DNA of 64,000 nt from Chiloscyllium plagiosum (taxonomy: Eukaryota). The stretch is from NCBI RefSeq assembly GCF_004010195.1, contig NC_057758.1, forward strand, positions 83,872 through 147,871. The letters are read 5' to 3'. The notes below the pieces were generated by a model. That model saw nothing but the letters and a program-made list of their open reading frames with translations, was not told where the DNA came from and did no database searches. Numbering within the stretch: position 1 is the first letter of the stretch; each line of letters starts with the position of its first letter. Positions 3,628 through 55,579 of this stretch are shown one piece after another. The position numbers and the translations under genes are program-made.

Positions 3628-3678
3628 TGTTCACTTTTTATCTTGCAGATCCGCAGTTGGACCCACCAGCGGAGCAAA

Positions 3679-10330: not shown

Positions 10331-11342
10331 ATACATAGGATCATATTTAGTCACGGACTTGACTTTCTGATAATCAGCTCAGAGTCTCCCAACTTCCCAA
10401 CTTCTATATTCAATGCCCTGACTCCTGACAGATGTCCTCTTAAATCTCTCTCTGCATGCGGTATATCTCAGGACAATCACAAACTGCTCTCTGAAACTCG
10501 CCTGAGTCACAGCATAAATCCCAGTGGTAGTGCAGCAGCTCAATAGCTGCAGTAGGAAGTTTAATTCCATCAGAAAAAAATGTGTAGATATAGTGTTTGG
10601 CAACCCAACCAGTACATGCGGAACCATATAGTATAGAACATTAGTAAAGACCACAACATCATGAAATTGTCCGAGATAGCTATGAGTAGGACGATGGATT
10701 TCCTTCGATTCTCCAACTCTGGATCTCTGGCACTCTCCCAAATGCTGTGTGCCCGGAGTCTCCTGTGGGCTCTGCTGTTCCCTCGCTCAACCACTTGCTC
10801 CCTGTCTGACAGGTGCATACCTATCAAATCCATGAACATGTTACACGTTTTAATTGAACCAGACCTCTGCAGTTTCCTTTCCCTTCTTCTGCATCCTACA
10901 TAGGATCATATTTAGTCACGGACTTGACTTTCTGATAATCAGCTCAGAGTCTCCCAACTTCCCAACTTCTATATTCAATACCCTGACTCCTGACAGATGT
11001 TCTCTTAAAACTCTCTCTGCATGCGGTATATCTCAGGACAATCATAAGCTGCTCTCTGAAACTCGCCTGAGTCACAGCATAAATCCCAGTGGTAGTGCAG
11101 CAACTCAATAGCTGCAGTATGAAGTTTAATTCCAGCAGAAAAAAAATGTGTAGATATCGTGTTTGGCAACCCAACCAGTACATGCGGAACCATATAGTAT
11201 AGAACATTAGGAAAGACACAACATCATTACATTGGCCGAGATAGCCATGAGTCGGACGATGGATTTCCTTCGATTCTCCAACTCTGGATCTCTGGCACTC
11301 TCCCAAATGCTGTGTGCCCGGAATCTCCTGTGGGCTCTGCTG
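10212..11342. repeat. 565-bp near-identical tandem duplication covering the 3' end of GPCR copy 1
   Basis: GTTCCCTCGCTCAACCACTTGCTCCC occurs at 10212 and 10777. ORFs 10289..10546 and 10854..11111 are paired. Confidence 0.92.
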
Positions 11343-12636
11343 ATCACGAGGATGTGTCTGACAATAAAAGCATTGCACAACAGGATCAGGAGAAATGGGA
11401 AGGCTGGGGTGGGAATCGTGTAGACGAACGTGGTTGCTACCCAGAATGGTGAAACGTCAGCATACAATCTAGATTAGATTATCTACAGTATGGAAACAGA
11501 CCCTTCGGCCCAACAAGTCCACACCGATCCTCCGAAGAGTAACTCATGTAAATCTATTCTCCTACATTGACCCCTGACTAATGTACCAAACAATATGGGC
11601 AATTTAGCATGGCCAATTAAGCTAACCTGCACATCCGGATTGTAGGAGGAAACCAGAGCACCCCGCAGACACGGGGAGAATGTGCAAGCTCCACACAGTC
11701 ACACAAGGTGGGAATTGAACCTGGGACCCTGGCGCTGTGAGGCAGCAGTGCTAACCACTGAGCCACCGTACCGCCCAGACAAAACCGGGTTTGGTTCACC
11801 AGCACATGCCACTCTGTCAACTTTAAATACCAGAAAATGGTCTTTGAACAGCACAGCACAGTTACTGTACACAGATCCACAGCCACTGTTCCCGCATTTC
11901 AATATGTACTTTTCAGGTTCTGGCAACAGATGGCGACAAATCAGTCAAAGGTGAAAGCGACGGTGAACCAGACTGATCAGTCAGTTGCTGCATGGAGTAT
12001 AACAGTGTGGATGTTACACAGAGGAATGGGCTTCAGGAAATGCAAATTTTCTTTAAAAGTAATTGGAATGTGCCTCAAAGTCAGATCCAGAAGATGACCA
12101 GCATGTCAATTACTGCCATGGCGACCAGGTAATGGGTGATGCACGTCGAGAGACCGCAATTTCCTAAACACAGGATCACTATCGTCACTGGATTAGCTGT
12201 GTGGAAGGAAAACACGCAGGGACATCAGAAATCCCGTCAGACACAAAATAATAGTTTAACTCAGCACCAATTGACAGTATTAAATGTGCCTTCTTGCTTA
12301 GGTTATTATATTCAAATGGTCACACCCAGTACTGATCATGCACTTGGAGACAGCAATGGTCCTGGCAAACATCTATTGAGCATCAGGAAGTTGTAGAAAT
12401 GGGTTTTTGCACTGAACAACCAACTCAGATTTCGAAAAATAAAACATACCAGGGACACCAACAATATCGAGAATTGAATACAAATAAATTTGGGCAACTT
12501 CATGTAGAAATTGAACAGTAATGCAAGTTGGTAACTGATATCCAGAAAAATTGTTAAACAAGAATGGATGTATTTCTGTTGTTGTGACATTCCAATGAAT
12601 TGGCCTTGCATTCCATTTGCTCCCCTCCCTCGGCAT
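10995..12636 (-). pseudogene. GPR139-like GPCR pseudogene, copy 1 (proximal exon 1 at 12636-12450; exon 2 from 12196)
   Basis: Exon 2 starts ANPVTIVILCLGNCGLSTCITHYLVAMA after the acceptor TTCCTTCCACACAG, frameshifts near 12090, and is split by a SINE at 11470-11776. It retains RDPELENRRKSIV and LQLLSCCTTTGIYAVTQ. The upstream exon ends YSILDIVGVP-G|GTATGT. Confidence 0.88.
11470..11776 (-). mobile_element. tRNA-derived SINE (HE1/V-SINE type) inserted in GPCR copy 1 exon 2
   Basis: Minus-strand head GGCGGTACGGTGGCTCAGTGGTTAGCACTGCTGCCTCACAGCGCCAGG...GGTTCAATTCCC (A and B boxes) and a TCTAA tail. Confidence 0.9.
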
Positions 12637-13189
12637 CCATAGCTGACATCACGGCTCGTGGCGGAGGTGATATCCTCACTCATATCCTTACAACTCAGGG
12701 AAAACTCCACTCTCCGCTAATTTAAACCAGCAACAAGGAAATGATTCACTCCCGTGTGGTAATCTCTGTAAGTTCGAGAGGCCATGAACAATTTAAGGTA
12801 AAGACTAACAACTTTATTTCTGAAATTATAACAGAGAATGACTCACTAACAACGATTTACAACTCCTTCCTCGATCCCATCTTTTACTTACCCTTCTACA
12901 TTACAAGTCTGATAAAACCCCCGAGTAAGACTGACCATAAATTCAGATTTCAAAACCAGGCAGCTGTTGAATCTTCCCTTTGTATCTTCGTCTGTAGTTT
13001 ATATTGGATCTTGTTCAGAACACTTAATGCTGTCAGGTAGTTCTGACAGCTTTTAACTTTCCTCAAGGTACAGTATACTTCTATACCTTCATAACGATAT
13101 GCAGAGATAACACTTTGAGGGAAGCTTCCGATAACACAATCAGGGTCGGTGTTGACCTAAGGTCATTGACCATCACGTAGAGTCAACGA

Positions 13190-13950
13190 GACATAGAGAC
13201 ATACAGCACAGAAACAGACCGACAGTCCAACTCAACTATGTCGACCAGACATCCTAACCTAATCTAGTCCTATTTGCCACTCTGCCTCTGAATCCATCCT
13301 ATTCATGTCCCCATCCAGAATGCTGTATTGTGCCTGGCAGCTCATTCTATACAGGCACAGATCTCTGACTGAAAAAAGTTGTCCCTCAGATACCTTTTAA
13401 ATTTTCCCCACTTACTCTCGTCCTATGCCTTCTAGTTCTGGACTCCTAGACGCAAGGGCAAAGACATTGTCAATTTACGCTACCCATGCCGTTATTGACT
13501 GTATTGACCTCATAACGTCACCCCTTAGCCTCTGATGCTCCAGGGAAAACAGCCCCAGCTTATTCAGCTTCTCCCTACAGCTCACTCTAACCTTGGCAAC
13601 AAAACATTGTCAATCTTTTCTGAATACCTTCAAGTTCACAACGTCCTTCCTGTCTCACAGAGACCAGTATTGCACGCAAAATTCCAAAAGTGTCCTAACC
13701 AATTTTCTATAGAGTCGCAACATGACTTGCCAAATCCTATACACAATGCATTGACCAATGAAGGAATGCATAGCATTCACTTTCTTCACTATTCTGTGTA
13801 CCTGCGAATCCTCTTTGAAGGAACTATGAAGCTGCAGTTCAATGTTTCTTTGTTCAGTAATACTCCACAGAACCTTATTAGCACCTCAGATTGACCTGAA
13901 TTAAACTCTGTCTGACACTCCTCAGCCGACTGCACCATCGCAGCCCTAAT
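13190..13950 (-). mobile_element. Degenerate CR1-like LINE 3' fragment
   Basis: Similar to the reverse complement of 56850-57647. Confidence 0.7.
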
Positions 13951-14184
13951 TAAATCCTCTCTCCCTCTCCAACACATCTCCTACGTCAATGTAGTCAAAA
14001 ACAGAGCCAGTGTCGAGTGGTTTAGAGATTTACTGAGTGAAGGGGTAGAATGAATTGTCTAAGGGCCCCATGCAACTGTCCTGCTCTGGTCTCTGAATGA
14101 GGTCGGCTATTTGAAAGCAACGTTTAAGAAAAGAGGGTGGGCTGAGGGGAGAGCATGTTCTGGTGATATTATCATAGCCTCCCA

Positions 14185-14490
14185 ACGGTGTGGAAACAGG
14201 CCATTTAGCCCAACAAATCTACACTAATGAAGAGTAAACTATTTATACATATCCCCCTACGTTTACCCTTGACAATGCTCCAAACATGACAGGCAATTTA
14301 GCATGGCCAATTCACCTAAGCTGCACAGCTTTGAATTGTGGGAGGAAGCTGGAGCACTCGGAGGAAACCCACGCAGTCACAGGCAGAACATGCAACCTCC
14401 ACACAGACAGTCGCCCAGAGGCTGGAATTTTACCCGGCACCCTGGCGCTGTGATGCAGCCGTGATAACCACTGAGCCACCGTGCCGCCCA
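14185..14490 (-). mobile_element. HE1/V-SINE-type SINE
   Basis: Same head and body as 11470-11776. Shared with paralogous positions 30290-30531 and 53350-53660. Confidence 0.85.
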
Positions 14491-14789
14491 CAATTGTCGT
14501 TACATTGTTCAGTCAGAAAGAGAGGCAATGCTCCCAGAACCTGTGTTCGCACCTCTCCATGGCAGATTACGGAGTTTTCATTCAATCAATAAATGACTCC
14601 GGCGATGCCCAGGAAATTGTTGCCAAATGTCACGAATGAATGGTTCCGTCGAAGCCTGGGAGAAAGTGAGGTCTGTAGATGCTGGCAATCAGAGTCGATC
14701 GCGTGGTGCTGGAGAAGCGCAGCAGGTCAGGCAGCATCCGAGGAGCAGGAGAATCGACGTTTCGAGCATAAGCCCTTCATTAGGAAACT

Positions 14790-15675
14790 TTTTGGGCCAC
14801 TGCTGTTTGTCACTTTTAGAAATAACTGCGACATAAGAACAGGTGGATGGGTTAGTAAGTTTGCAGATAAGACGAAAGTCGGTGGACAGTGTGAAAGACT
14901 GTTGCAGGTTGCAGGGAGTCTTGGACCGAATGCAGAATTGGGCTGAGAGGTGGCAAATGGAGTTCAATGTGAGGTGATTCACTTTGGGAAGAATGGAAAG
15001 ATTCTCGGTAGTGTGGATGTGGACAGGGATCTTGGAGTCCATGTACGTAGATCCCTGGAAGTTGCCACCCAGGTTGATAGTGCTGTTAAGAAGGCATACA
15101 GTGTGTTAGGTTTCATTGGTAGAGGGATTGAGTACTGGAGCCGTAACGTCATGCAGCAAATGTACAAACCACTGGTGCGGCCGCACATGGAATATTGTGT
15201 GCAATTCTGTTCGCCCCATTACAGGAAGCATATGGAAACAGTGGAAAAGGTGCAAGGGAGATTTACCAGGATGTTGCCTGGTCTGGAGGGAAGGTCTCAT
15301 GAGGAAAGGCTGAGAGAATTGAGTCTGTTCTCATTGGAAAGAAGCAGGCTAAGAGGGGATTTGATAGAGGCATACAAGATGATCAGAGGATTAGATAGGG
15401 TGGACAGTGAAAGTCTTGTTCCCAGGATGATGATATTAGCCTGTACGAGGGTTCAGAGCTACAAATTGAGGGGTGATAGAGGGGTCAACGGCAGGTTCTT
15501 TACTCAGAGAGAGGTAAGGGCGTGGAATGCCCTGACTGCCAATGTAGATAATACAGTGACACTAGGGAGTATTAAACATGGCTGAGGATGGAATAGTGTA
15601 CGGGGATGGGCGTAGATTCGTTCACATCGAAAGCTGAAGGACCAGTTCGGTGCTGCATTTTTCTATGTTCTATGT
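14790..15675 (+). mobile_element. CR1-like LINE ORF2 C-terminal fragment
   Basis: SKFADKTKVGG, and ORF 14950..15585 with RDLGVHV...YKPLVRPHMEYCVQF...LFSLERSRLRGDLIEAYK. Confidence 0.9.
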
Positions 15676-16317
15676 CTAAGCCTGGTATGACACCACTCAG
15701 TGAAGATCCCAAATGGTGACAATTCTGGTCCACCAGCTCCCTTGCCGTTTTTGAGCAAAGACGGTTGTGACTTATTGGCAGGTTCTGAATCATTCAGTCT
15801 ATGGTTCCAAATTTGGAACCGGAGGGAATTATTTCAGAATAAGGGGTCGCCCATTGCAGACAGTGATGAGGAGGAATTTCTTCTCTCTGAGAGGAGTGAA
15901 TCTATGGGATTCTTGACCGCAAAGGGGTGCTGTGGCTGGGTTATTCAGTATGTTCAAGGCTGAGAGAGAGAGAGAGAGAGATCATTTTATTTCTAATCTG
16001 GCTTGAAAATCAGAGATAGTGTAAGAAAGTGGAGTTGAGAACGATTGGATGAGAAATGAACTCATTGAACGGCAGAAGAGTTTCAATTGGCAGAATGGTT
16101 TCCTCCTGCTGCTCCGTCTAACTGAGTTGTGATTGAACACGCTGCCGGGAGTTGACAGGTAGAGTTGGGGCATGTGTGGATCCCGCTTCGCCATGGCACG
16201 ACAGTCTTGCTGGACTCCGTTATGTTCAGTCCATTGCCATTGTCACACAGCAGACATGTCAATAGCGCAGAGCTCTGTGCAGTCAGACACAGCTAATGGT
16301 ACTTAAAACTTACTCAC

Positions 16318-16399
16318 CAGGTACAGCGAAGAGCAGGTAGTAGATCTGCCCGATCCTGAGGAGGACACGATACATCTCCAATTCAACACTTATTCCCAC
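16318..16399 (-). pseudogene. Distal first exon of GPCR copy 1, decayed (ATG to GTG, in-frame deletions)
   Basis: Translates (V)GISVELEMYRVLLRIGQIYYLLFAVP-G|GTGAGT and is paralogous to the intact exon at 31244-31148. Confidence 0.75.
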
Positions 16400-18538
16400 T
16401 TTCACGCTGCACCTTAAGATTTTATGTTCTCAGATTCCAATTCCTCCTCTCTGCCCTCTCTCTCTACCTCTTTCTCTGTCTTTCTGTCTGTCAGTCTGAC
16501 TTTCTCCTCACCTCTCTTTCTGTCCCTTCATCTCTCTCACTCTGTCTCTCTCCCTCTGTCTCACGTTCTCTGTCTATCTCCCTCTCCCTGTGTCTCTCTC
16601 TCTATTACAGTACATGATGCTGGGACTGACAGACTGTGCCGTGTTAAGCTCATATCAGAACACTTCAACACATGTTTTACATTTCTCCGTGGATATGTTG
16701 GTGAGTTGTCACTGTCACTTACAAATGGAACACATTGGTATTACGTAGCAGCCTCCTGTGCGTCACCATGTCAAAGACCTTATGGAAATCTGAATACATC
16801 ACGTCAACTGGCTCACATTTGTCTAACTCTCAAGAATCTCAACACTGTCCAGGACAAAGCAGCTCCCTCTATCGACATGCTCACGTGTCCCTTCATCTCT
16901 CAATCCAAAACATCACCATTTATCAGTGTTTACCATCTGTGAGGTGCAATGCAGAAATTCACAAAGGGTCTTGAGACAGCACCTTCTAAACTGATGAGAT
17001 GACCACCTTTAATGGCAATTCGAGCAGATATATGGGAACACCAGCCTCTACAAATTACCTTCCAATTCACTTGCTATCATGACTTGGAAATAGCTCGATT
17101 ATGCCTTCACTGTCACTTGGTCAAAATCATGGAGCTCCCTTCCTAACGGCACTGAGTGGCTCACCCCTCCATTCAGAAGGCACTGCAGTGGTTGGAGAAA
17201 GCAGATCACTACCACTGTTCTTGGAGGGTGAATGCTCAGGGTGCTCCGCATAGTCAGAGTGTACGCACTGAGGGGGCTTGGCACTGTCGGAGGGTCAGTG
17301 CTGAGGGAGCTCTGTAGTGTTTGAGAGTCAGTGCTGAGGGAGCTCTGCACTGTCAAACCAGGATTGTTGAGGACGCCCCACAGTGCGTGGACTCCGCACC
17401 ATCAGAATGCTAATACTGAGGGAGAACGCCGCAATTTTGGAGGGTTAGTGCTGAGGAAGGGAGAGAGGAACGGAGAGAATGGAGAGAAGCAACAGAGAGA
17501 CAGATAGAGCGGGAGCGAGATAGGACAGAGGAAGAGAGAGAAAGGGAGACAGAGAGACTGAAGCGGAGAAAAAGAGAGATTTCGGGAGAAATAAAGAGAA
17601 GTAAAAAGAGGGAGGGAGTGTCAGAGAGAGAGAGAAGTGGAGAGACAGAGACGTAGATGAAGAGACACAGAAATTGAGCGTGTCAGAGACAAGTAGTGAC
17701 AGAAGGAGGCCATCTGGGTTGTGCGTTTTTTGAACTGGTCCTCCTGGGAGCAGATGCGGCGGAGTCGAAGGAATTGGCAGAAAGCAGTGACAGAAATAGG
17801 ACTGGGTCCTTTGGTCCATTATATTTTTTGAGTTTAAAAACAATTTAGTGCCCTGTAAATCCCGCCTGAGAGTATCTGTGGTCTCCCAGCACCAAATGGA
17901 CTGTCACGATACAGGCAGTCAGCTCGCCATCACATTATCAGGGAATGGTCTGACCAGAAACACAAACATCCCATCAAGGATTAAATAACGGTAATCACGC
18001 GTTTCCAGTTTCCAATCACAAAGCATCCCTAAAATTACAGATGAAGGAACTTGAACATGAAATTTCAGACCGATGGGATCAGTCGTGATTTCTGTCGTGA
18101 TTGTCTGTAGTCAGCAATGAGGAAACATCTCCCTGAAGCTTTGTCGAGGTCACTTTTCGCGTCTACACAAATCACTCTGCCCCCTTCTTCAATGTCAACA
18201 TTTCTCTAGTTATTTGTCCGACTTCATGTTTCCCCTTTCTGTGTTTTTGCTCATTTCCCCAGTTTCAGATGCTAACAATATTCCAGTGCAGGGAACTCCA
18301 AAGCATTCATCAGGAGAGTCTCCTGGAATCCACGTTCTTCCCTTCCTCTGAATAGGATGCAATCAGTAAATAGCCCTTTTCATCGGTGCCACCTCTTGGC
18401 CTTCATAGCCCTATCATCTTCTAAAAGAGGTTTCACGGTTCTCACTCTGTGGTGGTCTTTTCACAAGAAATTTCACCATCCAATCTTCATCACGATCGTT
18501 AGATTCACACACGCAGAGCTTTGGTCCGTTCATTTCTA

Positions 18539-25047: not shown

Positions 25048-25967
25048 TTAAATCTTCAGGTTTATTAATCGATAAATGATTTCACGGAGCATACATATGG
25101 GATATCTCAAGGCAATGATAAACTGTTTTCTGAACCTAGTCTGAGTCCCAGCATAAATGCCAGTGTTCGTGCAGCAACTCATCAACTGCAGTATGAAGCT
25201 TAATTCTATCACAAAACTGTGTAGGTACAACGTCTGGTAGCCCAACCAGTACATGCGGATCCATATAGAATAGAACATTAATAATGACCACAATAGCATG
25301 AAATTGGCTGAGATAAACAGCAATAAAATGATGGATTTTTTTCGGCTCTCCATCTCTGGGTCTCTGGGACTCTCCCCACTGCTGGGTACCTGGAGTCTCG
25401 CGCGGCCTCTGCTGGTCACGATAATATGCCTGACGGTGAGAACATTGCACAACAGGATTAGGATAAATGGTACACCGGGGGTGAAAATGTTGTAGACGAA
25501 CTCCATTGCTACCCAGATTGGTGAATTGATAGCGTAACGTCTAATCAGACAAAACCAGGGTTGGTTCACCAACACATACCACTCCGTCAACATGAAATAC
25601 CAGAACACGTTCTTCAAACAGCTCAGCACAGTCACTGTCCCGAGAACCATAGCTGCCGTTCTCTCATTGCAGTATTTAGTTTTCAGCTTCTGGCAACAAA
25701 TGGCCACAAATCGGTCAAAGGTGAAAGTGACTGTGAACCAGACTGAACAGTCAGTGGCTCCATAGAGCAGGACAGCATGTATATTACACAAGGGGATGGA
25801 CTCCAAGAAACGAAAGTGTTTAGTAAATGTAATTGGAATGTGCCTCAATATGAGATCGAGAATAGTAACCAGTAGGTCACTAACTGCCATGGCGACCAGG
25901 TAGCGGGTGGTGCATTTCGAGAGACCACAATTGCCCTGACACAGGATCACTATCGTCACAAGGTTAG
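25048..25967 (-). CDS. GPR139/GPR142-like orphan class A GPCR, copy 2, exon 2 (end of TM1 to C-terminus), reading frame intact
   Basis: Open 920-nt exon after the acceptor TTCCTTCCATGCAG: ANLVTIVIL...YLVAMAVSDLLV (TM2), TFDRFVAIC (DRY-like), TPGVPFILILLCN (TM5), KKSIILLLFISANF (TM6), SCCTNTGIY (TM7). Stop codon at 25050-25048. Confidence 0.9.
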
Positions 25968-26330
25968 CTGCATGGAAGGAAAACACAGAGGTACATCAGA
26001 AGTCCATTTGGACACGAGGCACTATTTAACTCACCATCAATTCACGGTCTTAAATGTACCAATTTGCCAATGTTATTATATTCAAATAATCGCACACATG
26101 AGTAATTATGCACTGGAGATTGGAATGGTCTCGACGCATCAACAGAAGACCAAAAAATCGGCAAATGTGTGACAGTTCAAAATGAGCATAGAATTCCAGT
26201 AAAAGTAAGGTGACAATAACAATATAGAAAATTGAATACCAACTAATTTCAGCAATTTCATGTTGAAAATGAATGGTAAGAAAAGCTGGCAACTGATAGG
26301 TCGATAGATTATTAAACAAGTGTGGATATA

Positions 26331-29020
26331 GAACAAAAACAAAGAAAATTTACTGCCCAGGAACAGACCCTTCGACCCTCCAAGCCTGAGCCGATCTAAA
26401 CCAGTCGCCCAATTCCTAAGCATCTGCATCCCTTTGCTTCTCACCTACCCATGCATCTGTCCAGACGCATCTTAAATGAATCTACTGTGCCTGCTTCTAC
26501 TACCTGTGCTGGCCAGGTGTTTCAGGCGCGTTCCACCCTCTGTTTGAAATACTTGCCGCGTGAATGCCCCTTAAACTTTTCACCTCTCACCTTGAAAGTG
26601 TGATCTGTTGTTATTGAATCCTTCACCCTGAGAGGAAAATCTTATCTCTATCTACCCTGTCCATGACCTTCATGATTATGTAGACCTCAATCAGTTCCCC
26701 CCTCAATCTCCTTTTTTTCCAGTGAAAACAAATCTAACCTACTCAACCTCACTTCATAGCTAGCACCTTCCATAGAGCAAAACATCCTCGTGAACCTTCT
26801 CTGCACCCTTTTCAAAGGATCCAAATCCTTTTGGTATGGTGGCATTCTAAATGTGGCCAAAACAATGTCTTGTACAATTTTAAAATGACCTGCCCGCTAT
26901 TATACTTAATCACCCGTCCGATGAAGGCAAGAATACCATATATCTTCTTGACCACTGTATCCACCTGTGCAGCAACCTTCAAGGGTACAATGGACCAGAA
27001 ATCCCAGATCTCTCTGCTCATCAACTTTTCCCAAGGCTCTTCCATTACTGTGCAATTCGCTCCAGAATTAGACTTCCCAAAACGCATCACCTCACATTTG
27101 CCTGGATTCAACTCCATCTGCCACTTCTCCACCCAACTTTCCAACCTATCTATATTCTCCTGTATTCTTTGACTGTTCCCTATGCTTTCTGCTACTCCAC
27201 CAATCTCCGCGTCATCTGCAATCTTGCTGATCATACCAACAGTGCCCTCTTCCAGATCATTTATGCATATCACAAACAAGATCACTGTGGCACACCATTG
27301 GCCAACTTTCTCCATTTCGACAAGCTCCCTTCAACTACTACTCTCTTTCCTGTTGCTCAATCTGTTCATTATCTACCGAGCTAGGACACTCTGTATACCA
27401 CCTGACTTCACTTTCTCCATTACTTTGCCATAGAGAACTTCATCAAACGCCTTACTAAAGTCCATGTATGTGACATCCACAGCCCTTCCTTCGTTTGTCA
27501 ATATAATCATTTCCTCAAATAACTCTATTATGTTGGTAATGCATGACCTCCCCCGCACAAAACCATGTTACCTATCACTGATAAGCCCATTCCTTTCCGA
27601 ATATATCTAGGTTTTATCCATCAGTGCCTTCTCAAGCAAACTTTCCCAACACTGTTATCAAGCTCACTGGTCTGTCATTAGCCGGAATATCCCTACTATG
27701 CATCTTGTACAGGTGGAAAGCACAGCAACCCTCCAATAGGCTGGCACCTCGCCTGTGCTTCAGGATGCTACCAAGATATCTGTCAGGGTCCCAGCTTTTT
27801 TTTCTCTCCAATCCTCAGCAACCTGGGATAGATCCCATCTGTTCCTGCGTAATTGTACTCATAAGTAACTTCTAACCTATCCAACACATATTCCATACGA
27901 ATGTCAACATGATCCAGAGTAACAAACTTCTGTCTCTAATGTCAACATTCATCATGACCCTCTTCTCGGTGAACATTGATGCAAAGTAACCAATCAGAAT
28001 CTCAGCAATTCTCTCAGGTTCAACATACAGCCTTCCTTCATTATCCTTTAGTGGACCAACCCTTTCTCTAGTTACCCACTTCCTTCTTATATAAGAATGA
28101 AATGCTTTGGGATTCTCCTTAATTCTGCTCGATAAAGCTATTTTGTGACCCCTTTTAGCCCGCTTGATTCCTCGTTTAAGACTGGCCCTACTCTCCCGAT
28201 ATTCCTCCAGGGCCCATTTTGTTCTTAGCTGCCTGGACTTTATGTACGCATCCCTTTCCCTCTTGGCTAGGGGAACGATTTCTCCTGTCATCCACGGTTC
28301 TTGAATCTTGCCATTCCTAACTTTTGCTTTCTACGGGACGTGCCTAACCTGCACTATCTTTAACCTATCTTTGAAAGCCTCCTACAAATGAAATGTGGAC
28401 TTCCCTTCAAATACCTGTGTCTAATCCACATTTCCCAACTCCTGCCTAATTTTGATATAATTGGCCTTCACCCAATTTAGTATTCTTCCATCGGGGCCAC
28501 TCTCATCTTTGTCTATGAGTATTCTAAAACTGACAGAATTGTGCTCACCATTCCCAAAGAAATCGCCCACTGCAACTTCTCCCACCTGGCCTGGCTCATT
28601 CATTAAACACCAGGTCCAATATGGTCACTTCCCTCATCAGACGATTGACATATTGCCCCAGAAAACTCGCCTGGACACTTCTTACAAATTCTGCACCAAA
28701 ACTCTGACACTATGCGTATCCCAGTCAATGCTATGAGCATTGAAATCTCCCATCACCACCACCCTGTTGCCTGTACATCTTTCCATAATCTGTTTACCTA
28801 TTTGTTCTTCTCCCTCATGCTCACTGTTGGGAGGCCTGTAATGCAGACCCAACAATGTAACTGTTCCCTTCTTTTTTCTCAGCTTCACCCATAGTGCCTC
28901 ACTACTCAAGCAGTCCATAATGTTCGCCTTTAGCACAGTCATGATATCATCCCTGACCAGCAATGAAACACCTCCCTCGTTTTACTTCCCTCCCTGTCCT
29001 TTCTGTAGCGTCTCAATCCT
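26331..29020 (-). mobile_element. About 2.7-kb 5'-truncated CR1-like LINE (endonuclease and RT remnants) inserted in the proximal first exon of GPCR copy 2
   Basis: APE motifs LGLHYRPPNS...[47 protein letters not shown]. The flanks rejoin into the exon seen uninterrupted at 46010-46198. Confidence 0.9.
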
Positions 29021-29224
29021 GGAAAATATCTGTTGTTGTGAGATTCCAATAAACTGGTCTTACGTTCCATCCGCTCCGCTGCCTACGCATCCGTAGCTTA
29101 CTTCCTCACTATTGTCAGAGGTGGCGTTCTCACGCACACTCAGAGATGACACTTTCAGAGAAGCTCCCCATAACATAATCAGGATCGATGGAGATCTACC
29201 ATCATTGACGATCACTTAGAATTA

Positions 29225-30050
29225 TGGAGTAATAGAACTCTACAACAGAAGCAGAACTTTCATTGCAATTGTCCATGCCGGGCATGTGTTCTAAATTAAT
29301 CTAGTCTCATTTGCCAGCATTTGGCCGAAATTCCCCTGAAACCTTCTTATTCTTGTCCCCATCCAGATGCCTTTTAAATGTTATACTATGGTCCATCACA
29401 TCCTCTGGCAGCAGATTCCTTTCACACACAACCTTCTGCGGGTAAAGGTTACCGACTCAGGTTCCTTTTAAACAATTCCCCTCATCCTAAATCTGCACCC
29501 TTTAGTTCTGCATTCCCCTAACCCAGTAAAATTACTTTGTCCTTTTACGCTGTCCATGCCCCTCAGAGTTTTACAATCCGCCATAAGATTACCCCTCTGC
29601 CTCCGACAATCCAGAGTAAACAGCTTCAGACTATTTAGCCTCTCCCGATAAGCCAAACCCTCCATTCCTGGCTACAACCTTGTAAATCTTTTCTGAACGC
29701 TTTCAAGTTTGACAACGTCATTCCTGCAGTGGGGAGAACAGAATTGCACACAATATTCCAAAAGTGCTCTAACCAATGTCCTGTACAGCCACAACATGAC
29801 CTCACAAATCCGATACTCGATGCTCTGACCAATAAACACAAGCATACCAAACCGTCTTCTTCAGTATCCAATCTACCTGCGGCTTTACTTTGAAGGAACT
29901 ATGAATCTGCACTTCAAGGTCTCTTTGATCGGTAACACTCCCCTGGACATCACCATTGAGTGTATAAATCCTGCCCTGATTTACATTTTCGAAATGCAAC
30001 ACCTCTAAATTAAACTGCATCCACCACTCCTCGGCCCATTAGACCATTAC
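29225..30050 (-). mobile_element. CR1-like LINE 3' fragment
   Basis: EGLAYRERLNSLKLFTLDCRRQRG and QRDLEVQIHSS. Confidence 0.85.
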
Positions 30051-30289
30051 AGCTCTGGTTAACTTCGCTGTCTCTCTCTCTCTCTCTCCAAAATATCATG
30101 CCCCTCAATTTAGTTGAAAACAGAGCCAGTCTCGACGGTTGTGGGAGAGGCACTGTGAGAACGGACAGAGAGAATTGTCTAAGAGCACCAGGCAACTATT
30201 CTGCTCGAGGTTGGTAGTTTGCAAACAGTGTTTTAAAGAATAGGATGGGTTTAGGGGACAGCATGTTCTGGTGACATTATCATGGAATC

Positions 30290-30531
30290 CCTACAGTGTG
30301 GAAACAGGCCATTTTGGCCCAACAAGTTCACACCAACACACCAATGAGTCTCCCAACCAGACCCAATCCCTTCCTTATTATTTTACATTCGTTCTGACAA
30401 ATGCACGTAAACTACACCGTCCTGAATACAATGGACAATTTATCATGACGAATTCACCTAACCTGAACATCTTTGGATTGTGGGACAAAACCGGAAAAGC
30501 TGGAGCAAACCCACGCGGACACGGAGAGAAT
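30290..30531 (-). mobile_element. HE1/V-SINE-type SINE, cut by a gap
   Basis: SINE body and tail sequence run into the N gap. Confidence 0.75.
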
Positions 30532-30712
30532 NNNNNNNNNNNNNNNNNNNNNNNNNNNNNNNNNNNNNNNNNNNNNNNNNNNNNNNNNNNNNNNNNNNNN
30601 NNNNNNNNNNNNNNNNNNNNNNNNNNNNNNNNNNNNNNNNNNNNNNNNNNNNNNNNNNNNNNNNNNNNNNNNNNNNNNNNNNNNNNNNNNNNNNNNNNNN
30701 NNNNNNNNNNNN
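30532..30712. other. Assembly gap (N) inside the predicted GPCR intron
   Basis: Run of N. Confidence 1.
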
Positions 30713-31147
30713 AGGAATTTCTCCTCTCCACGAGCAGTGAATTTATGGGCTTCTTCGCCACAGAGAGATGTTGTGGTTGGGTCATTCAGTATATTCAAGG
30801 CTGAGGAAGAGAGATTTATTAATCAGGCTGGAATTGGAGATATAGTCTCTGAAAGTGGAGTTGGGAATGATTGGATTAGCGGAAATCTCAGTGAACGCCA
30901 GAAGGGTTTCATTGGGTCGAATGGCTTCCTCCTGCTCCTCCGCATGAATTTATGAATGAACACACTCGCTGGGCAGTGGCAGGTATGGAGTTGTGCAGAT
31001 TCTGCTCGGCGATCAGAAAGACTGGGCTGCTGGACTCACTCATGTTCAGTCGATCGTTTGGATTATGCAGCAGAAATCACAACAGCACAGAGCTCTGTGG
31101 AGTCTGACACAGGGAAAGGTGTGTACAACACCAGCGCAGTTACTTAC

Positions 31148-31244
31148 CAGGCACAGCAACAGCAGCGAGGAGCGGGTAGTAAATCTGCTCGATACTGATG
31201 AGGAAATCATACACCTGATTCTCAGTTTCGACGCTTATTCCCAT
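31148..31244 (-). CDS. GPR139-like GPCR copy 2, exon 1 (N-terminus and first half of TM1), intact
   Basis: Manual translation: aaaATGG context, MGISVETENQVYDFLISIEQIYYPLLAAVAVP-G, followed by a perfect GTAAGT donor. The exon is 97 nt (phase 1) and joins in frame to exon 2 (G|CT = Ala), giving 1017 nt, or 338 aa plus stop. Confidence 0.85.
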
Positions 31245-33281: not shown

Positions 33282-33759
33282 AAGAGCAATATCAATCCTC
33301 TCCCAAACCCAGAATTGTTCCGTCCAATGGAGAGGGGAAATCAGGTAGGTTCACTGTCAGAGTCTCTGTCTCTATCTTTGTGCCCGACACCCAGCCCTCT
33401 CTCATTCTCTCTGTCTCGCCACAACCTGATTATCACTTGCACTCTTATTCTCTGTCTCTCGCTTCCTCCATCTCTGTCTGAGTCTCTCTCTCTCTCTCTT
33501 TTGGTCTCTCTCTCTCTCTTTGTATCTATCTATCTCGGCGCGTCCCCCATTCGGAATCTCTTGTTCTGTCATTTTGCATCTTCGTGCATATTCTTCTATC
33601 TCTCACTCTAACCCCCTCATATTGCCTCTCTTCCACTTTCTCTCTCTCTCTCGGTCTCTGTCTGTCTCTCGCCGTCTCTCTGTACCTCTCCCTACGTGTT
33701 TCTGTGTGTCAGTCTGACTTTCTCCCAGTCTCTCTTTTCGTCCCTTTATAATACCTGAT

Positions 33760-34880
33760 CATTGGACTAACCAGCTGTGCTGGGCTTAGCTCCTGCCTAA
33801 ACCGTTTCAGCCATGTTTACGTTTCCTTCTGGATATTTTAGGTGAGGTGCCCCTGTTAGTTTCAAATGCACCGTGTCAGTATTACTCAGCAGCCTCCTGT
33901 GGGGAACCTTGTCAATGTCCTTCTAGAAATCTGATGAGATCAGATCAACTGGCTCTCCCTTGTCAAAATTGCTCGTTAATTCCTCAAAGAAATCTAACAG
34001 AATTGTTAGGCATGATCTCCACTTGATGAAGCCGTGCAGACTTCACCCAATTTTACTGTGAACTTCCAAGTATTCTCTAACCTCATCTTGAAGGATGGAC
34101 TCTGAAATCTTTTCAATGGACATGGTCAGGGCAAGAAACCAATAAATTCATGTCTTTTGCGTCCTCCCAACTTCTTAAGCTCGGATTTGGTATTTGCCAT
34201 TTTCCTGTCACTCCCTGACTCCAGGGATTCCTGAACAATCATCACCAATTACTCAACAATCTCTCAGCTATCTCCTTCAGAACTCCGAGATGCAGTCCAT
34301 CTGATCAATGACATATGGCCACCTTCAGCCCTTTCAGCTTACCCGAGCACCTTCTCCTTCGAGAAACACCACAATCACCTCAGTCCCCGTTTCTCTGGAA
34401 ATTCTGCTAAGTTGCTACCCCTCTGAAGATTGGTGCAGAGTACTAAATCACATCCACCTGTATGTCCTTGTTCCCTATTACTATTTCTTCAGCCTCTCTT
34501 TGCAGCGTTCCAAATGTGAGTTTTTACTGTGTAGCGAAACACTCATGTAATCTTCTTTGATACTACTAGCTAGCTTTCTCTCATATTTCATCTTCTCTAC
34601 CTTATTTCATTTTTTATAGTAATACTGTGCTGATATTTAAAGGATTCCCTATCCCTTGGCCTCCCCCTAGTCTTCAACACACTGTATGCATTTTTTTCGT
34701 TTGTTTCTATGCTCTTCCAGATTTCCCTCGCCAACTACGGCTGCTTCACCCTTCCCTTTGTATGTTTCGTCTTCCGTGTGACGGTATTTTCTTGTCCCTC
34801 CCGAAATACCCCTAGAATTTCCTGCCATTGCTGCTTCACCATCTTCCAAATACCATTAGCCAGTACCTCCATCATGTTTT
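33760..34880 (-). mobile_element. Old, highly degenerate CR1-like LINE fragment
   Basis: Contains TGTGGGGAACCTTGTCAA (reverse complement of the DKVPH motif region) and general similarity to other RT fragments. No long ORF. Confidence 0.55.
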
Positions 34881-35614
34881 TGTAGTGAATGCCGGGTGAT
34901 TGAGAGTCTCAAAAAATCAGTGCAAATGGCCTGAGTGGAGAATGGACGGGCTGAGTAACAAGAGTCTGCAGATGACCAAGCGTGTCAGTGCGAGTCAATT
35001 GTCCACAGCTAAATAGTGAAGGGCCGACCTATCACCTTCAGGTCAGCGTCCTCCAAGGCGACCTTCGAGACGCGTGACAATGCAGACTCGCTGAGCAGGA
35101 ACGGATCGCCAAGCTCTGTCCCCATGAGGACGGCCTCAACCATGGTCTTGGGTTCATCTCGCTCTAAATATAAGTCCACTGCACTGTTCTGTGTAACACC
35201 TTCCTTCTCGTCCTGTTTTTGACGCCATGACATCGATAACTTGCTATTATCTCTCTTCCTTAATTAATGTGTGCTGTTCTTGATTGCTTGTTACTTTGTT
35301 CAGACTCTCAGCATGCGACTCTGATAGCTCCTCGTTATTGCAGACATTTGGTATGCCTCCAGCACCATTTTAATTAAAATAATTCTCTCTCCGCCTTAAT
35401 TAATTGAATCCTAGGTTCATAGATCATACTATTCGCACTTATATTTTGACACTATTAATTTGCTGAAATTATCTTGCCATGATCGATCTGTCCACTTGTA
35501 AGTTCCCTTACTATGCACTTCCTTCCACTTCAACTGACGAAGATGCAGCTCTCCAAAGGCTTGTAATTTCAAATAAGCCAGTTGGACTATAACTGGGTGT
35601 GGAGTGATTTCTGA

Positions 35615-36115
35615 CTTTAAACAGCTCAGCGCAGTCACTGTCCCCAGAACCACAGCTGCCAGTGCCTCAGTGCAATATTTCGTTTTCAGCTTCAGTCAAC
35701 AAATCAGTCTAAATTGTAAGAGACGGTGAATCAGACGGAGCGGTCAGGAGCACAATAGAGCAGGTCTTTCCCCTGGGATTGGAGAATAGGGTGAGCATGA
35801 CAGGGTAAAGGATTTAAAGGGACCTGAGGGACAATTGTTGCACGGATGGAATGAGATGCCAGAGGAATTGGTGGAGACTGGTACAGTTACAACATTTAAA
35901 AGACATCTGAATGGGGCATGAATAAGAAGGGTTGAGAGGAGCATATGCCAATTATTTTGTAAATGGGACTAGGTTATGTTGGTATGTCTGGTTGGCAAGA
36001 CCGAGTTATACCGAAGGGTCTGTTTCCATGCTGTACATCTCTATGGCTCTGTGACAGTGTGGACATTTCAAATGGGGATGGATACAGGAAGCGAAATGTC
36101 CTGAGCATTACCAAT
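35615..36115 (-). pseudogene. GPCR exon 2 relic (TM3-TM4 region), split by a LINE 3' fragment at about 35760-36050
   Basis: AAVVLGTVTALSCLKS and KLKTKYC-like sequence at 35617-35752. A weaker match to the ESIPLCNIH region lies at about 36052-36110. Confidence 0.7.
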
Positions 36116-44830: not shown

Positions 44831-46198
44831 TTAGACTTCTGATTCTTTTTTAATCATCAGTTGTATTAATCGAGAAATTATTTCACGGAGCATTCCTATG
44901 GGATATCTCAAGGCAATTATAAACTGTTTTCTGAACCTAGTCTGAGTCACAGCATAAATCCCAGTATTAGTGCAGCAACTCAGCAACTGCAGTATGAAGT
45001 TTAATTTCATAACAAAAATGTGTAGTTACATCGTTTGCAGGTACAACCAGTGCATGCGGATCCATACGGAATAGAACATTAATAATGACCACAACAGAAC
45101 GAAATTGGCCGAGACAAACAGCAATAAAAGGATGGAATTTCTTCGGCTCACCATGTGTGGGTCTGTGGGACTCGCCCCACTGCTGAGTGCCCGGAGTCTC
45201 TTGCAGCCTCTGCTGGTCACGATAATGTGCCTGACAGTGAGAATATTGCACAACAGGATTAGGACGAATGGTATGCCAGGGGTAAGAATGCTGTAGACGA
45301 ACTCCATTCCTACCCAGAATGGCGAATTAATCGCATAGCGTCTAATCAGACAAAACCAGGGTTGGTTCACCAACACATACCACTCCGTCAACATGAAGTA
45401 CCAGAAAATGTTCTTTAAACAGCTCAGCACATTCACTGTCCCCAGAACCACAGCCGCCGTTCTCTCACTGCAGTATTTACTTTTCAGCTTCTGGCAACAA
45501 ATGGCAACAAATCGGTCAAAGGTGAAAGTGACAGTGAACCAGACTGAACAGTCAGTAGCTGCATAGAGCAGGACAGCATGGATATTACACAAGGGGATGG
45601 ACTCCAAGAAATGAATGCGATCTTTAAAAGTAATTGGAATGTGCCTCAATATTAGATCGGGAACACTAACCAGTAGGTCACTAAATGACATGGCGACCAT
45701 GTAGCTGGTGATGCATTTAGAGAGACCACAATTTCCCTTACACAGGATCACTATCGTCACTAGGTTAGCTGTGTGGAAGGAAAACATAGAGGGATATCAG
45801 AAGTCCGTTTGGACACAAGGTAATAATTTAACTCATCATCAATTCACAGTCTTAAATGTGCCGTTTTGCAACTATTATATTTGAATGATAGCACCCATGA
45901 CTGATTATGCACTGGAGATCAGAATGGTCAGAAATTAAACATCAAAAAAGGATTTTAAAAAGCAGTAGAAGTGTTGTAGTGGAAATTGAGCATAGATTTC
46001 TAGTAAACGTAAAAGGGACACTAACAATATCAAAAATTGGAGTCCAATTGATTTGGACAAGTTCATACAGAAATTGAATGGTTAGCTAAGCTGGCAACTA
46101 TAGTTTGAAAGATGATTAAGCAAATGTGGAAATATGTCTGCTATTGTGACACTCCAATAAATTTGTCTTACATTCCATTCCCTCCTCTGTCTATGCAT
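44831..46198 (-). pseudogene. GPR139-like GPCR pseudogene, copy 4 (exon 2 at 45768-44831 with a single premature stop; decayed proximal exon at 46198 to about 46012)
   Basis: ORF 45026..45787 is closely similar to copy 2. TAC to TAA at 45028-45026, after which the frame continues LHIFVMKLNFILQLLSCCTNTGIYAVTQTRFRKQ to a TAA at 44833-44831. Confidence 0.88.
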
Positions 46199-50299: not shown

Positions 50300-52010
50300 T
50301 CATTTATGCTTCAGTCCTGCTAACGTGCGGAGGGTTTCCTGGAGGAGACTTACGGGATATCTCAGGACAATCGTACGCTGCTCCCTGAACGGCGCCTTAG
50401 TCACAGCATAAACCCCAGTGTTAGTACAGCAACTCAGAAGCTGCAGTATGAAGCTTAATTCCATCAGAAAAAAAAATGTATAGATACAGCATTTGGTAAC
50501 CAAAGCAGTACACGCGGATCCATATAGTGTACAACCTTACAACATCATTAAATTGGCCGAGATAGCCATTTGTAATATGATGGATTTCCTTTGGCTCTCC
50601 ATCTCTGAGTCTCTGGGACTCTCCCAAATTTCTGAGTGTCCTCCGGGCTCTGCTGATCATGGGGATGTTTCTCACCATCAAAGCATTGCACAACAGGATC
50701 AGGAGAAATGGGGCACCTGGGGTGCTGTAGATGAACTCGGTTGCAACCCAGAATGGTAAAATGCTCAGCGTGCAATCTAATCAGACAAAACTGGGGTTGG
50801 TTCACCAACACTTAGCACTCCGTCAATATGAAATGCTAGAGCATGTTCTTTGAGCTGCTCAGCACAGTTACTGTGCACAGAACCACAGCGGCCATTTCCT
50901 CTTTGCAATATGTACTTTTCAGCTCCTGGCAATAGATGGCGACAAATCGGTCAAGGGTGAAAGCGATGGCGAACCAGACTGAACAGTCAGTTGCTGCACA
51001 GAGTAGGACAGTGTGAATATTACACAGAGGAATGGAGTCCAGGAAATGAAAGTGCTCTGTAAAAGTAATTGAAATGTGCCTCAATATCAGATCGAAAAGA
51101 GTAACCAGTATGTCAGTTACTGCCGAAGCGACAAGGTAGTGGGTGATGCTCTTAGAGAGACTGCGATTTCCCTTGCACATGATCACAATCGTCACTCGGT
51201 TAGCTGTGTGGAAGGAAAACATACAGGGACATTAGAAATCCCGTCGGACACAGAATAATATTTTAACTCAGCACCAATTGACAGTTTTACATGTGTCTTC
51301 TTGCATTGGTTGTTATATTCAAATGATCACACCCAGTTCTGATCATGCACTTGGAGATGACAATGGTCTTGAAAAGCACAGCAGGTCAGGCAGCATCCCA
51401 GAAGCAGGAAAATCGACATCTCAGGCAAAAGCCTGCTCCTGCTCCTCGGATGCTGCCTGACCTGCTGTGCTTTTCAAGACCATTGCCATCTCCAAGTGCA
51501 TGATCAGAACTGGGTGTGACTGCAAGGACTGCAGGACTGCAGATGCTGGAAACAAGAGTCTAGATTAGAGTGGTGCTGGAAAAGCGCAGCAGGTCAGGCA
51601 GCATCCCAGAAGCAAGAAAATCGACATCTCAGGCAAAAGCCTGCTCCTGCTCCTCGGATGCTGCCTGACCTGCTGCGCTTTTCCAGCACCACTCTAATCT
51701 AGACTCTTGTTTCCAGCATCTGCAGTCCTTGTTTTTACCACGACAATGATCCTGGCAAAAATTTGTAGAGAATCAGAAAGCTGTAGAAATGGGTTAGTTG
51801 CATAGAACAATCAGCTCTGATTTTGAAAAGAAAACACGTACCAGGGACACCAGCAACATCGAGAATTAGAAACAAATTAATTTGGACAAGTTGATGTAGA
51901 AATTGAACGGTAATACACGTTGGTAACCAATAGCTAGCAAGATGGTTAAACAAGAATGGATTGTGACATTCTGATAAATTGGCCTTACATTCCATTTGCT
52001 CCTCTCCCTC
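50300..52010 (-). pseudogene. GPR139-like GPCR pseudogene, copy 5 (exon 2 at 51203-50300; proximal exon ends at 51842)
   Basis: ANRVTIVIMCKGNRSLSKSITHYLVASAVTDILV...TLDRFVAIYC, followed by in-frame stops and frameshifts, then LQLLSCCTNTGVYAVTK. The upstream exon ends LILDVAGVP-G|GTACGT. Confidence 0.88.
51327..51729. repeat. Two consecutive long hairpins (72-nt and 74-nt arms) formed by a Penelope-type insertion
   Basis: 51327-51398 pairs with 51448-51519 (1 mismatch). 51533-51606 pairs with 51656-51729 (no mismatch seen). Confidence 0.9.
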
Positions 52011-53276: not shown

Positions 53277-53349
53277 TGCAAGCAAACGTTTAAGAAAAGA
53301 GGGTGGGCTGAGGGGAGAGCATGTTCTGGTGATATTATCACCGAATCCC

Positions 53350-55578: not shown

Positions 55579-55579
55579 A

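What the first reader, a model, noticed from the sequence alone, without database searches (positions are those of the whole stretch)
25048..31244. Hidden intact two-exon orphan GPCR, a member of an expanded GPR139-like receptor repertoire
Seen: the ORF track shows only exon 2, with a false start in the intron pyrimidine tract. A 97-nt exon 5.2 kb upstream (MGISVETENQVYDFLISIEQIYYPLLAAVAVP, donor GTAAGT) completes TM1 in the correct phase and gives a 338-aa 7TM protein with DRF in TM3 and NTGIY replacing NPxxY. Established: mammalian GPR139 and GPR142 are single-copy receptors activated by aromatic amino acids, and sharks have very few classical olfactory receptors. Inference: tandem amplification, rapid pseudogenisation and short N-termini resemble chemosensory or immune-sensing receptor families, so this may be an uncharacterised sensing repertoire, here linked to perforin.
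Basis: partly seen in the sequence, partly recalled or inferred. Interest (0 to 1): 0.75.

Follow-up and report, generated by a model that had tools for sequence, protein, structure and literature searches.

The report
Intact member of giant shark receptor family
This is a real, unbroken two-exon gene for a cell-surface receptor from a very large, apparently unstudied receptor family of sharks, rays and chimaeras, whose closest relative in amphibians and sturgeon is a single gene, and which may be a missing set of chemical sensors in animals thought to have very few.

Summary
In detail: a 97-nt exon (31244-31148) joined in phase 1 to 25967-25048 gives a stop-free 338-aa class A GPCR. 98 of 120 relatives carry the same TM1 half, and the intron blocks flanking the N gap are colinear in two gap-free paralogues. 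Four other copies in the window are broken.

It is not a GPR139 or GPR142 orthologue. It scores 27 bits against human GPR139 and lacks the polar pair (basic 6.51, Asn 7.39) that binds Trp/Phe. It belongs to a family of sharks, skates, rays and a chimaera: 2,121 protein clusters matched, with at least 52 distinct members in one shark. Its sister branch is one conserved gene in amphibians, sturgeon and reedfish.

Across subfamilies the ligand pocket is the most variable part and the G-protein face is conserved; the single-copy relative shows the reverse in its pocket. That is the pattern of a sensing repertoire. Tissue, ligand and this gene's own transcript are not shown. Short N-termini and a perforin link are not supported.

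The parts
31148..31244 (-). Coding exon 1: start codon, 32-residue N-terminus and first half of TM1; phase-1 GT donor
   Evidence: relatives with an exon-1 peptide of similar length (P0071, P0094, P0045)
25968..31147 (-). 5,180-nt intron with a decayed LINE-like stretch (about 26.4-30.2 kb), SINE-like pieces and the 181-N gap
   Evidence: RVT_1 match below the curated cut-off
25048..25967 (-). Coding exon 2: rest of TM1 to TM7, helix 8 and stop codon
   Evidence: Pfam 7tm_1 E 3.4e-16; AlphaFold2 model pLDDT 91.8
26212..26327 (-). Dead relic of a second, proximal exon-1 copy inside the intron; no start codon or donor in this unit
30532..30712 (.). Assembly gap (181 N); flanks colinear with gap-free paralogues, where they lie about 1.5 kb apart
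33671..33967 (-). Upstream block shared with units B and C, with a TATA-like word near 33750; separated from exon 1 by about 2.36 kb that B and C lack
   Evidence: promoter function inferred only
44852..45769 (-). Paralogue D exon 2 (81% amino-acid identity), one premature stop at codon 280; exon 1 not found, 500-N gap upstream
50309..55595 (-). Paralogue B: frameshifted exon 2 (51204-50309) and exon 1 (about 55595-55500), cut from its 5' end at about 57.7 kb by a LINE-like insertion
10445..16408 (-). Paralogue C: exon 1 without ATG and with a short deletion; exon 2 frameshifted, interrupted by an insertion, 3' part duplicated
35612..35802 (-). Paralogue E: short decayed fragment of exon 2 (TM3-TM4)
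3592..5387 (+). Perforin-like gene in pieces (three separate open frames; MACPF and C2 matches); a neighbour, not part of the receptor gene

Best explanation
SHOWN: an intact two-exon class A GPCR gene, the only unbroken copy among five tandem same-strand units in the window. It belongs to a family that expanded before chimaeras split from sharks and rays, from a branch of the GPR139/GPR142-related receptors that survives as one conserved gene in amphibians, sturgeon and reedfish. Members share a conserved intracellular face and a TM3-ECL2 cysteine pair, while the ligand pocket differs between subfamilies and is conserved within this gene's subfamily. INFERRED: the family works as a repertoire of sensors for outside chemicals. 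Each subfamily binds a different small polar ligand (peptide, amino-acid derivative or similar metabolite) in the helix bundle, and all signal through a common G protein (Gq/11 or Gi/o by analogy with GPR139). Copies arise by segmental duplication and die by LINE/SINE insertion and point mutation. The most likely site is chemosensory cells (nose, taste, skin or gut); that is not shown.
For: Family size: 2,121 of 2,629 candidates at E<=0.001; 119 of the 120 listed are named, all from 10 shark species. 64 of the 120 are Heterodontus and fall into 59 groups at 95% and 52 at 90% core identity. Skates, rays and the chimaera Callorhinchus are among named representatives. Sister branch: one cluster per named species for 20 amphibian clusters, plus Acipenser and Erpetoichthys; it groups with the family at 99/95. 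Pocket test (27 positions against 42 other upper-helix positions): entropy 2.62 vs 1.99 bits in 67 diverse members (p 0.0015), 2.67 vs 1.96 in 37 non-redundant ones (p 0.0003), but 0.14 vs 0.66 in 22 bony-vertebrate rows (0 of 20,000 shuffles); G-protein face 0.95. Selection: dN/dS 0.45 (95% interval 0.29-0.69) against paralogue D; 2 departures at 116 near-invariant columns, equal to the family median. A paralogue is transcribed: 38 raw single-cell RNA reads continue in frame into a different TM6. Precedent: the nematode srw chemoreceptors derive from myosuppressin/FMRFamide-type receptors (PMC2576165), the group sister to GPR139/142 (PMC8557429).
Against: No tissue or ligand data. No read of this gene's own exon 1 and no 31148>25967 joint among the rows shown from about 2% of one single-cell run of unknown tissue (weak). 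About 2.36 kb of extra DNA with 29 ATGs separates exon 1 from the upstream block that adjoins it in B and C, and an out-of-frame ATG at 31312 overlaps the start, so this copy could be silenced. The protein has no N-glycosylation site and lacks P6.50 (only 11 of 187 family rows keep P6.50). Catshark olfactory neurons are reported as nearly all TRPC2/Go microvillous cells that fit V2R expression (PMC10116579). Fused gene models place some members beside integrin-alpha-X-like, Ig, TRIM and trypsin genes, which fits immune-type regions too. The pocket positions were chosen from recalled class A consensus and numbered by hand; the diverse set is also far more divergent overall (46% vs 75% identity).
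Confidence: 0.5

Rival explanations
1. An immune or barrier sensing repertoire: receptors on granulocytes, macrophages or mast-like cells that read microbial or damage-derived peptides, working like the expanded FPR or MRGPR families of rodents (analogy recalled).
For: Pocket diversity and birth-and-death fit equally well. A perforin-like gene lies in the window. Among 32 long family models scanned, fusions include integrin-alpha-X-like, Ig, TRIM/RING and trypsin domains.
Against: The perforin gene is in pieces and no perforin domain occurs in the 32 models. Other fusions are not immune (sodium channel, hemopexin, hexokinase, uromodulin-like). Fused automatic models show proximity only.
Confidence: 0.25
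2. Mostly passive amplification: a small core of functional receptors carried along in repeat-rich segmental duplications, most copies (perhaps this one) silent or redundant.
For: 4 of 5 window copies are broken and the duplication units include flanks and repeats. This copy's upstream block is displaced. No own reads were seen.
Against: dN/dS is below 1 even against a pseudogene. 116 columns are near-invariant across 120 clusters from 10 species. Deep subfamilies are shared between sharks and skates or rays. Variation is concentrated in the pocket, which drift alone would not give.
Confidence: 0.15
3. Receptors for endogenous signals (amidated aromatic neuropeptides, nutrients or osmolytes such as urea-cycle or methylamine compounds) in brain, gut or kidney, close to the ancestral GPR139 role.
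For: The wider clade binds aromatic-ended peptides or aromatic amino acids (PMC8557429). The single-copy bony-vertebrate sister keeps F3.33, W6.48, basic 6.51 and N7.39.
Against: 0 of 187 cartilaginous-fish rows keep basic 6.51 plus N7.39, against 22 of 22 bony rows. Hundreds of divergent pockets are hard to match to a small set of endogenous ligands; the same argument was made for srw (PMC2576165).
Confidence: 0.1

Closest known systems
Human GPR139 (PDB 7vug, 9m42) and GPR142
   Same: Best solved-structure match for this protein and for the family profile (109 bits vs 83.5 for neurotensin receptor 1). Shares W6.48, an aromatic 3.33, N5.58 and a proline-less TM7 motif. RefSeq names 118 of the 120 listed relatives 'GPR139'.
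   Different: Only 27 bits over exon 2. Pocket residues E108, F109, H187, W241, R244, N271 (PMC5430874, PMC8807744) map to L, Y, Y, W, L, F here. This protein has the TM3-ECL2 cysteines, which GPR139 lacks at 3.25, and has lost P6.50. GPR139 is described as a highly conserved brain receptor (PMC12208981 abstract); this is a large, fast-turnover family.
Unnamed single-copy 'probable GPR139' of amphibians, sturgeon and reedfish (e.g. XP_069092602.1, Pleurodeles)
   Same: Sister group at 99/95; shares the distal ICL3 motif and the TM7-entry motif with basal shark members; short N-terminus.
   Different: One cluster per named species, with an almost invariant pocket that keeps the GPR139-type polar pair. 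About 26-30% identical to this protein. It scores only 53 bits against human GPR139, so it is not GPR139 either. I found no paper on it.
GPR210A/GPR210B (Rinne et al. 2019, PMC6504862) and 'Orphan 139-like' (PMC5207463)
   Same: Non-mammalian GPR139-related orphans of coelacanth and ray-finned fish; P0240/P0246 and P0316 fit that description and lie just outside the family.
   Different: Those sets are named from fish and coelacanth only; the paper has no mention of sharks and lists no amphibian set here. Accession identity with my rows was not checked.
Nematode srw chemoreceptors and Aplysia srw-like chemosensory genes
   Same: A birth-and-death expansion from the same broad peptide-receptor lineage, proposed to sense environmental peptides (PMC2576165; PMC3963977). 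P0316 passes the Srw cut-off.
   Different: An independent, invertebrate expansion. The window protein has no Srw match.
Vertebrate OR, TAAR, V1R, V2R, T1R, T2R families
   Same: Clustered genes, many pseudogenes, variable pocket.
   Different: No Pfam match to any of them. Cartilaginous fishes average 43.8 (20-62) complete olfactory receptor genes (PMC10869828); one shark has at least 52 distinct members of this family among only 120 listed hits.

Membership tests
Class A (rhodopsin-like) GPCR | 7tm_1 domain and seven-helix class A fold | tested here: met
   Pfam 59.9 bits, cut-off 30.5; model pLDDT 91.8, pTM 0.88; Z about 24, rmsd about 3, about 260 aligned to class A receptors
Class A (rhodopsin-like) GPCR | N1.50, D2.50, D/E-R3.50, C3.25 with an ECL2 cysteine, W6.48, N7.49 and Y7.53 | tested here: met
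   N34, D63, D117-R118, C93, W259, N300, Y304; P6.50 and P7.50 absent
GPR139/GPR142 orthologue | High sequence similarity to human GPR139 | tested here: not met
   27.2 bits, E 2.5e-5; three bony-vertebrate relatives score 53-70 bits and are also distant
GPR139/GPR142 orthologue | Trp/Phe pocket: E3.32, F3.33, H5x43, W6.48, R6.51, N7x38 | tested here: not met
   2 of 6, counting Y for F; 0 of 187 family rows hold basic 6.51 plus Asn 7.39
GPR139/GPR142 orthologue | Groups with GPR139 or GPR142 in a tree | not tested
   No true GPR139 or GPR142 sequence came into the session; trees lack them
GPR139/GPR142 orthologue | Activation by L-Trp/L-Phe through Gq/11 | not testable with these tools
   needs a cell assay
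GPR139-related (GPR139-like/GPR210) clade | GPR139 is the nearest characterised receptor; nearest outgroups are coelacanth, teleost and amphioxus 'GPR139' proteins | tested here: met
   (84-row clade at 100/100 against three invertebrate rows)
Chondrichthyan GPR139-like expansion | Nested among shark members of the family | tested here: met
   inside a 23-row clade at 100/100, nearest row Carcharodon at 71%
Canonical vertebrate chemoreceptor families (OR, TAAR, V1R, V2R, T1R, T2R) | Family-specific profile match or closest-relative status | tested here: not met
   only 7tm_1 at E<=0.001; no such name among the 120 listed hits
Chemoreceptor-type repertoire (works like) | Tandem clusters with birth-and-death turnover | tested here: met
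   5 same-strand copies, 4 broken; at least 52 distinct members in one shark
Chemoreceptor-type repertoire (works like) | Hypervariable ligand pocket, conserved G-protein face | tested here: met
   holds between subfamilies, not within the 120 closest rows (0.67 vs 0.91, p 0.08 in the other direction)
Chemoreceptor-type repertoire (works like) | Short N-terminus throughout the family | tested here: not met
   8 of 83 scorable close rows have N1.50 at or before residue 40; median 68; 61 of 83 carry an N-glycosylation site (automatic gene models)
Chemoreceptor-type repertoire (works like) | Sparse expression in sensory cells; response to outside chemicals | not testable with these tools
   tissue labels are coded; the catshark tissue tables could not be read
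Immune-sensing GPCR expansion (FPR/MRGPR-like role) | Conserved linkage to immune genes such as perforin | tested here: inconclusive
   broken perforin here; 0 of 32 long models with a perforin domain, some with other immune-type domains; no genomic context for relatives

The most novel reading that the evidence does not exclude
Cartilaginous fishes have their own chemoreceptor family, additional to the six known vertebrate ones. It arose from a single GPR139-related gene more than 400 million years ago (date recalled), outnumbers their ORs, TAARs, V1Rs and V2Rs together, and is expressed sparsely in olfactory or other chemosensory cells. It would repeat in vertebrates the route by which nematodes made srw chemoreceptors, and it would answer how sharks smell well with about 44 known receptors.
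Probability: 0.3. Interest if true: 0.92.

Novelty: new variant of a known kind. Interest (0 to 1): 0.66.

Why it matters
Published surveys count about 44 olfactory receptor genes in cartilaginous fishes (PMC10869828) and speak of a relative paucity of GPCRs in them (PMC8455134). Yet automatic annotation hides a very large family under the label 'probable GPR139'. Whatever its tissue, this looks like a major unstudied GPCR family of sharks and rays. It comes with a ready control, the single-copy amphibian gene, which can be studied in Xenopus or axolotl. Existing catshark tissue RNA-seq could decide between smell, immunity and silence at once. The single gene is one ordinary member; the interest lies in the family.

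Tried and rejected
No whole genome is held, so members could not be counted genome-wide.

Expression: no RNA holder was listed for exon 2; this says nothing about expression. Laying 4 of the 17 listed runs showed no 31148>25967 joint among the rows shown (83 further joints not shown). The summed contig depth over TM3 in run X3 (about 86,500 against 19-37 for single pieces) is not a copy number and was not used as a count.

Structure: folding without an alignment failed (pLDDT 47). Foldseek and VIA-align gave generic class A matches, and GPR139 was not among the rows shown, which is inconclusive.

Phylogeny: three homologue searches and one representative search brought in no true GPR139 or GPR142; P0316, P0240 and P0245 were tested and are not orthologues. 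Monophyly of the cartilaginous-fish rows fell from SH-aLRT 92 to 80/55, so it is not claimed.

Gene anatomy: the proximal exon-1 relic was rejected as the true exon 1 (no start codon or donor). A conserved TATA box guessed near 16890 was not found. The sigma-70 promoter scan does not apply to a shark. dN/dS by loop between two copies rests on too few sites (for example ICL3, 1 synonymous change) and was not used.

Literature: searches found no paper on this expansion (one search was for pocket data). Subscription journals are not covered. The catshark supplement was too large to read. 14 of 24 listed whale-shark supplementary files were searched with no family information; its orthogroup and gene-family-size files were unreadable and may bear on the novelty claim. 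A link to electroreception was considered and dropped, since frogs keep the single-copy gene (loss of electroreception in frogs recalled).
Full report
1. The observation. On the minus strand, 31244-31148 is a 97-nt exon from ATG to a GTAAGT donor. Joined to the CAG acceptor at 25967 it gives 1,017 nt and 338 aa without a stop; the four neighbouring offsets do not. An in-frame stop lies just upstream of the ATG, and the intron is 5,180 nt. Exon 2 matches Pfam 7tm_1 and folds as a class A receptor (pLDDT 91.8 with an 89-row alignment). Exon 1 completes TM1: the best 19-residue hydropathy is 2.28 with it, and 0.99 for the start of exon 2 alone. 98 of the 120 closest relatives carry the same first half of TM1; the other 22 are automatic models that differ over that half but match the second, as expected if the exon boundary is shared. 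The gap does not break the link: sequence on both sides lies in the same order in two gap-free paralogues, about 1.5 kb apart. A coded public run that looks genomic has low-depth pieces over both exons at about 96-99% identity, with no coding-region gap among the rows shown.

2. The neighbourhood. Five same-strand copies of exon 2 start at 51204, 45769, 35802, 25967 and 12197. Four are broken: D by one stop at codon 280, B by frameshifts and a LINE-like insertion at the start of exon 1, C by loss of the ATG and an insertion, and E is a fragment. Four units also hold an older dead copy of exon 1 just upstream of exon 2. Against D, dN/dS is 0.45 (0.29-0.69). The protein departs at 2 of 116 near-invariant columns, the family median. 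One caveat: the upstream block that adjoins exon 1 in B and C is displaced by about 2.36 kb here, and an out-of-frame ATG overlaps the start, so transcription of this copy is open. The perforin-like gene at 3.6-5.4 kb is in three separate frames.

3. The family. 2,121 of 2,629 candidate clusters (90% identity) matched; I saw names only for the best 120, of which 119 are named and all are sharks. Heterodontus supplies 64 of them (counted by hand), forming 52-59 distinct groups. The 50%-cluster search gave 410 hits, 109 at E<=1e-30. Of 30 representatives looked up, 20 are cartilaginous fishes, including skates, rays and the chimaera Callorhinchus; 5 are other named animals and 5 have no species name. 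The nearest outsiders are three conserved bony-vertebrate genes also labelled GPR139 or unnamed. One, found as one cluster per named species in frogs, salamanders, a caecilian, sturgeon and reedfish, groups with the family at 99/95 in an 87-row tree. In that tree 31 of the 73 family rows were never named and were assigned by position, and monophyly of the cartilaginous-fish rows is weak (80/55). No amniote or teleost orthologue was listed, but these searches need shared words, so loss is not proven. All three bony genes score only 53-70 bits against human GPR139 and the window protein 27, yet GPR139 is the best solved match for the family profile. So this is a separate branch of the GPR139-related clade. 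True GPR139 and GPR142 were not available for the tree.

4. The pocket. GPR139 binds Trp and Phe with F109, H187, W241, N271, R244 and, indirectly, E108 (PMC5430874, passages; PMC8807744, first third of the text). I mapped these by counting from helix motifs in the alignment. The window protein keeps 2 of 6. None of 187 cartilaginous-fish rows keeps basic 6.51 plus Asn 7.39, whereas 22 of 22 bony sister rows do. Pocket entropy exceeds that of neighbouring upper-helix positions across subfamilies (2.67 vs 1.96 bits, p 0.0003, 37 non-redundant rows; positive in 20 of 20 subsamples of 22 rows). It is far lower in the single-copy sister (0.14 vs 0.66) and slightly lower within this gene's own subfamily (0.67 vs 0.91). 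The G-protein face stays conserved (0.95 bits against 1.79 overall in the diverse set). This gene's subfamily fixes a polar pocket (D2.57, R2.61, H3.28, D3.37, E5.39, R6.59, E7.36, Q7.42). The pocket list is my choice from recalled class A consensus and omits TM4 and ECL2.

5. Expression. In about 2% of one single-cell RNA run of unknown tissue, no read lay on exon 1 and no joint across the intron was among the rows shown. About 40 reads matched part of ICL3-TM6 and continued in frame as a different family member that is not in the window. So the family is transcribed somewhere; this gene is unproven.

6. How it most likely works. Shown: an intact receptor frame, purifying selection, tandem birth-and-death, subfamily-specific pockets and a shared intracellular face. 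Inferred: each subfamily detects a different small polar molecule or peptide and signals through a common G protein. I put sensing of outside chemicals at 0.5 (about 0.3 for a true olfactory or chemosensory-organ repertoire), immune sensing at 0.25, mostly passive amplification at 0.15 and endogenous signalling at 0.1. The precedent is the nematode srw family, derived from myosuppressin/FMRFamide-type receptors and proposed to read environmental peptides (PMC2576165, passages; PMC3963977, passages). That group is sister to GPR139/142 (PMC8557429, passages; PMC8514136, passages). Against smell: catshark olfactory neurons appear to be nearly all microvillous V2R-type cells (PMC10116579, passages), and the catshark sensory-organ paper does not mention GPR139 (PMC11979771, search counts and passages).

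7. What is known. RefSeq already labels these proteins 'probable GPR139'. Rinne et al. named fish and coelacanth relatives GPR210A/B without mentioning sharks (PMC6504862, passages). A review table lists an unclear 'Orphan 139-like' (PMC5207463, passages). A 2025 GPR139 review does not contain the word 'cartilaginous' (PMC12208981, passages). The whale shark paper notes a relative paucity of GPCRs in cartilaginous fishes (PMC8455134, passages and 14 supplementary files). The bamboo shark paper has no GPCR mention (PMC7677710, term search). PMC13113109 (passages) had nothing on this family. The vertebrate survey gives 43.8 (20-62) olfactory genes (PMC10869828, passages). Searches found no description of the expansion; closed journals and unread supplements may hold one. 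Two earlier notes of this scan report the same family in other genomes; they are leads, not support.

8. Verdict. Observation confirmed; interpretation partly supported and sharpened. The gene is one member of a real, ancient, very large and apparently undescribed receptor expansion with a single-copy bony-vertebrate sister. Novelty: new variant of a known kind. Interest 0.66; 0.92 if it proves to be a chemoreceptor family of its own.

Noticed in passing
window 26212-26327, 51843-51929, 53092-53178, 12451-12537, 46014-46079: Four units carry a second, decayed exon-1 copy about 250-350 nt upstream of exon 2. B and C keep a phase-1 GT donor but no in-frame start; B also has an inverted copy. An old exon duplication predates the unit duplications.
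   Followed up: partly
   Followed up: partly
window 31307-33670: About 2.36 kb present only in the intact unit, between the shared upstream block and exon 1. It holds a 491-bp tandem duplication, 29 ATGs (33760-31245), a strong acceptor-like site ending at 31523 and two short upstream frames.
   Followed up: partly
window 3592-5387: The perforin-like gene is in three separate open frames and shows no intron between the regions that are separate exons in mammals (recalled); it looks like a pseudogene.
   Followed up: partly
P0245, P0278-P0297, P0314: A conserved single-copy GPR139-related gene of amphibians, sturgeon and reedfish keeps the GPR139-type polar pocket but is not GPR139; no paper on it was found. 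A candidate aromatic amino-acid or peptide receptor in its own right.
   Followed up: partly
window 5279-7282, 10212-11345, 32300-33281, 40748-41088, 41705-43065: Several near-identical (96-98%) head-to-tail duplications of 170-1,000 bp; either recent tandem duplications or assembly artefacts from joined haplotypes.
   Followed up: no
P0128, P0136, P0186, P0318, P0188, P0197, P0221, P0252: Automatic gene models fuse family members to hemopexin, integrin-alpha-X-like, TRIM/RING, trypsin, sodium-channel, uromodulin-like and Ig domains, showing that copies are scattered among many neighbours and often mis-annotated.
   Followed up: no
P0119 and relatives: Many relatives have long N-termini rich in N-glycosylation sites, in at least one case built from a repeated short unit; the window protein has none.
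   Followed up: no
window 2137-2332, 51327-51729: Palindromic elements of about 195 bp (83-87% self-complementary), MITE-like, with partial copies elsewhere in the window.
   Followed up: no
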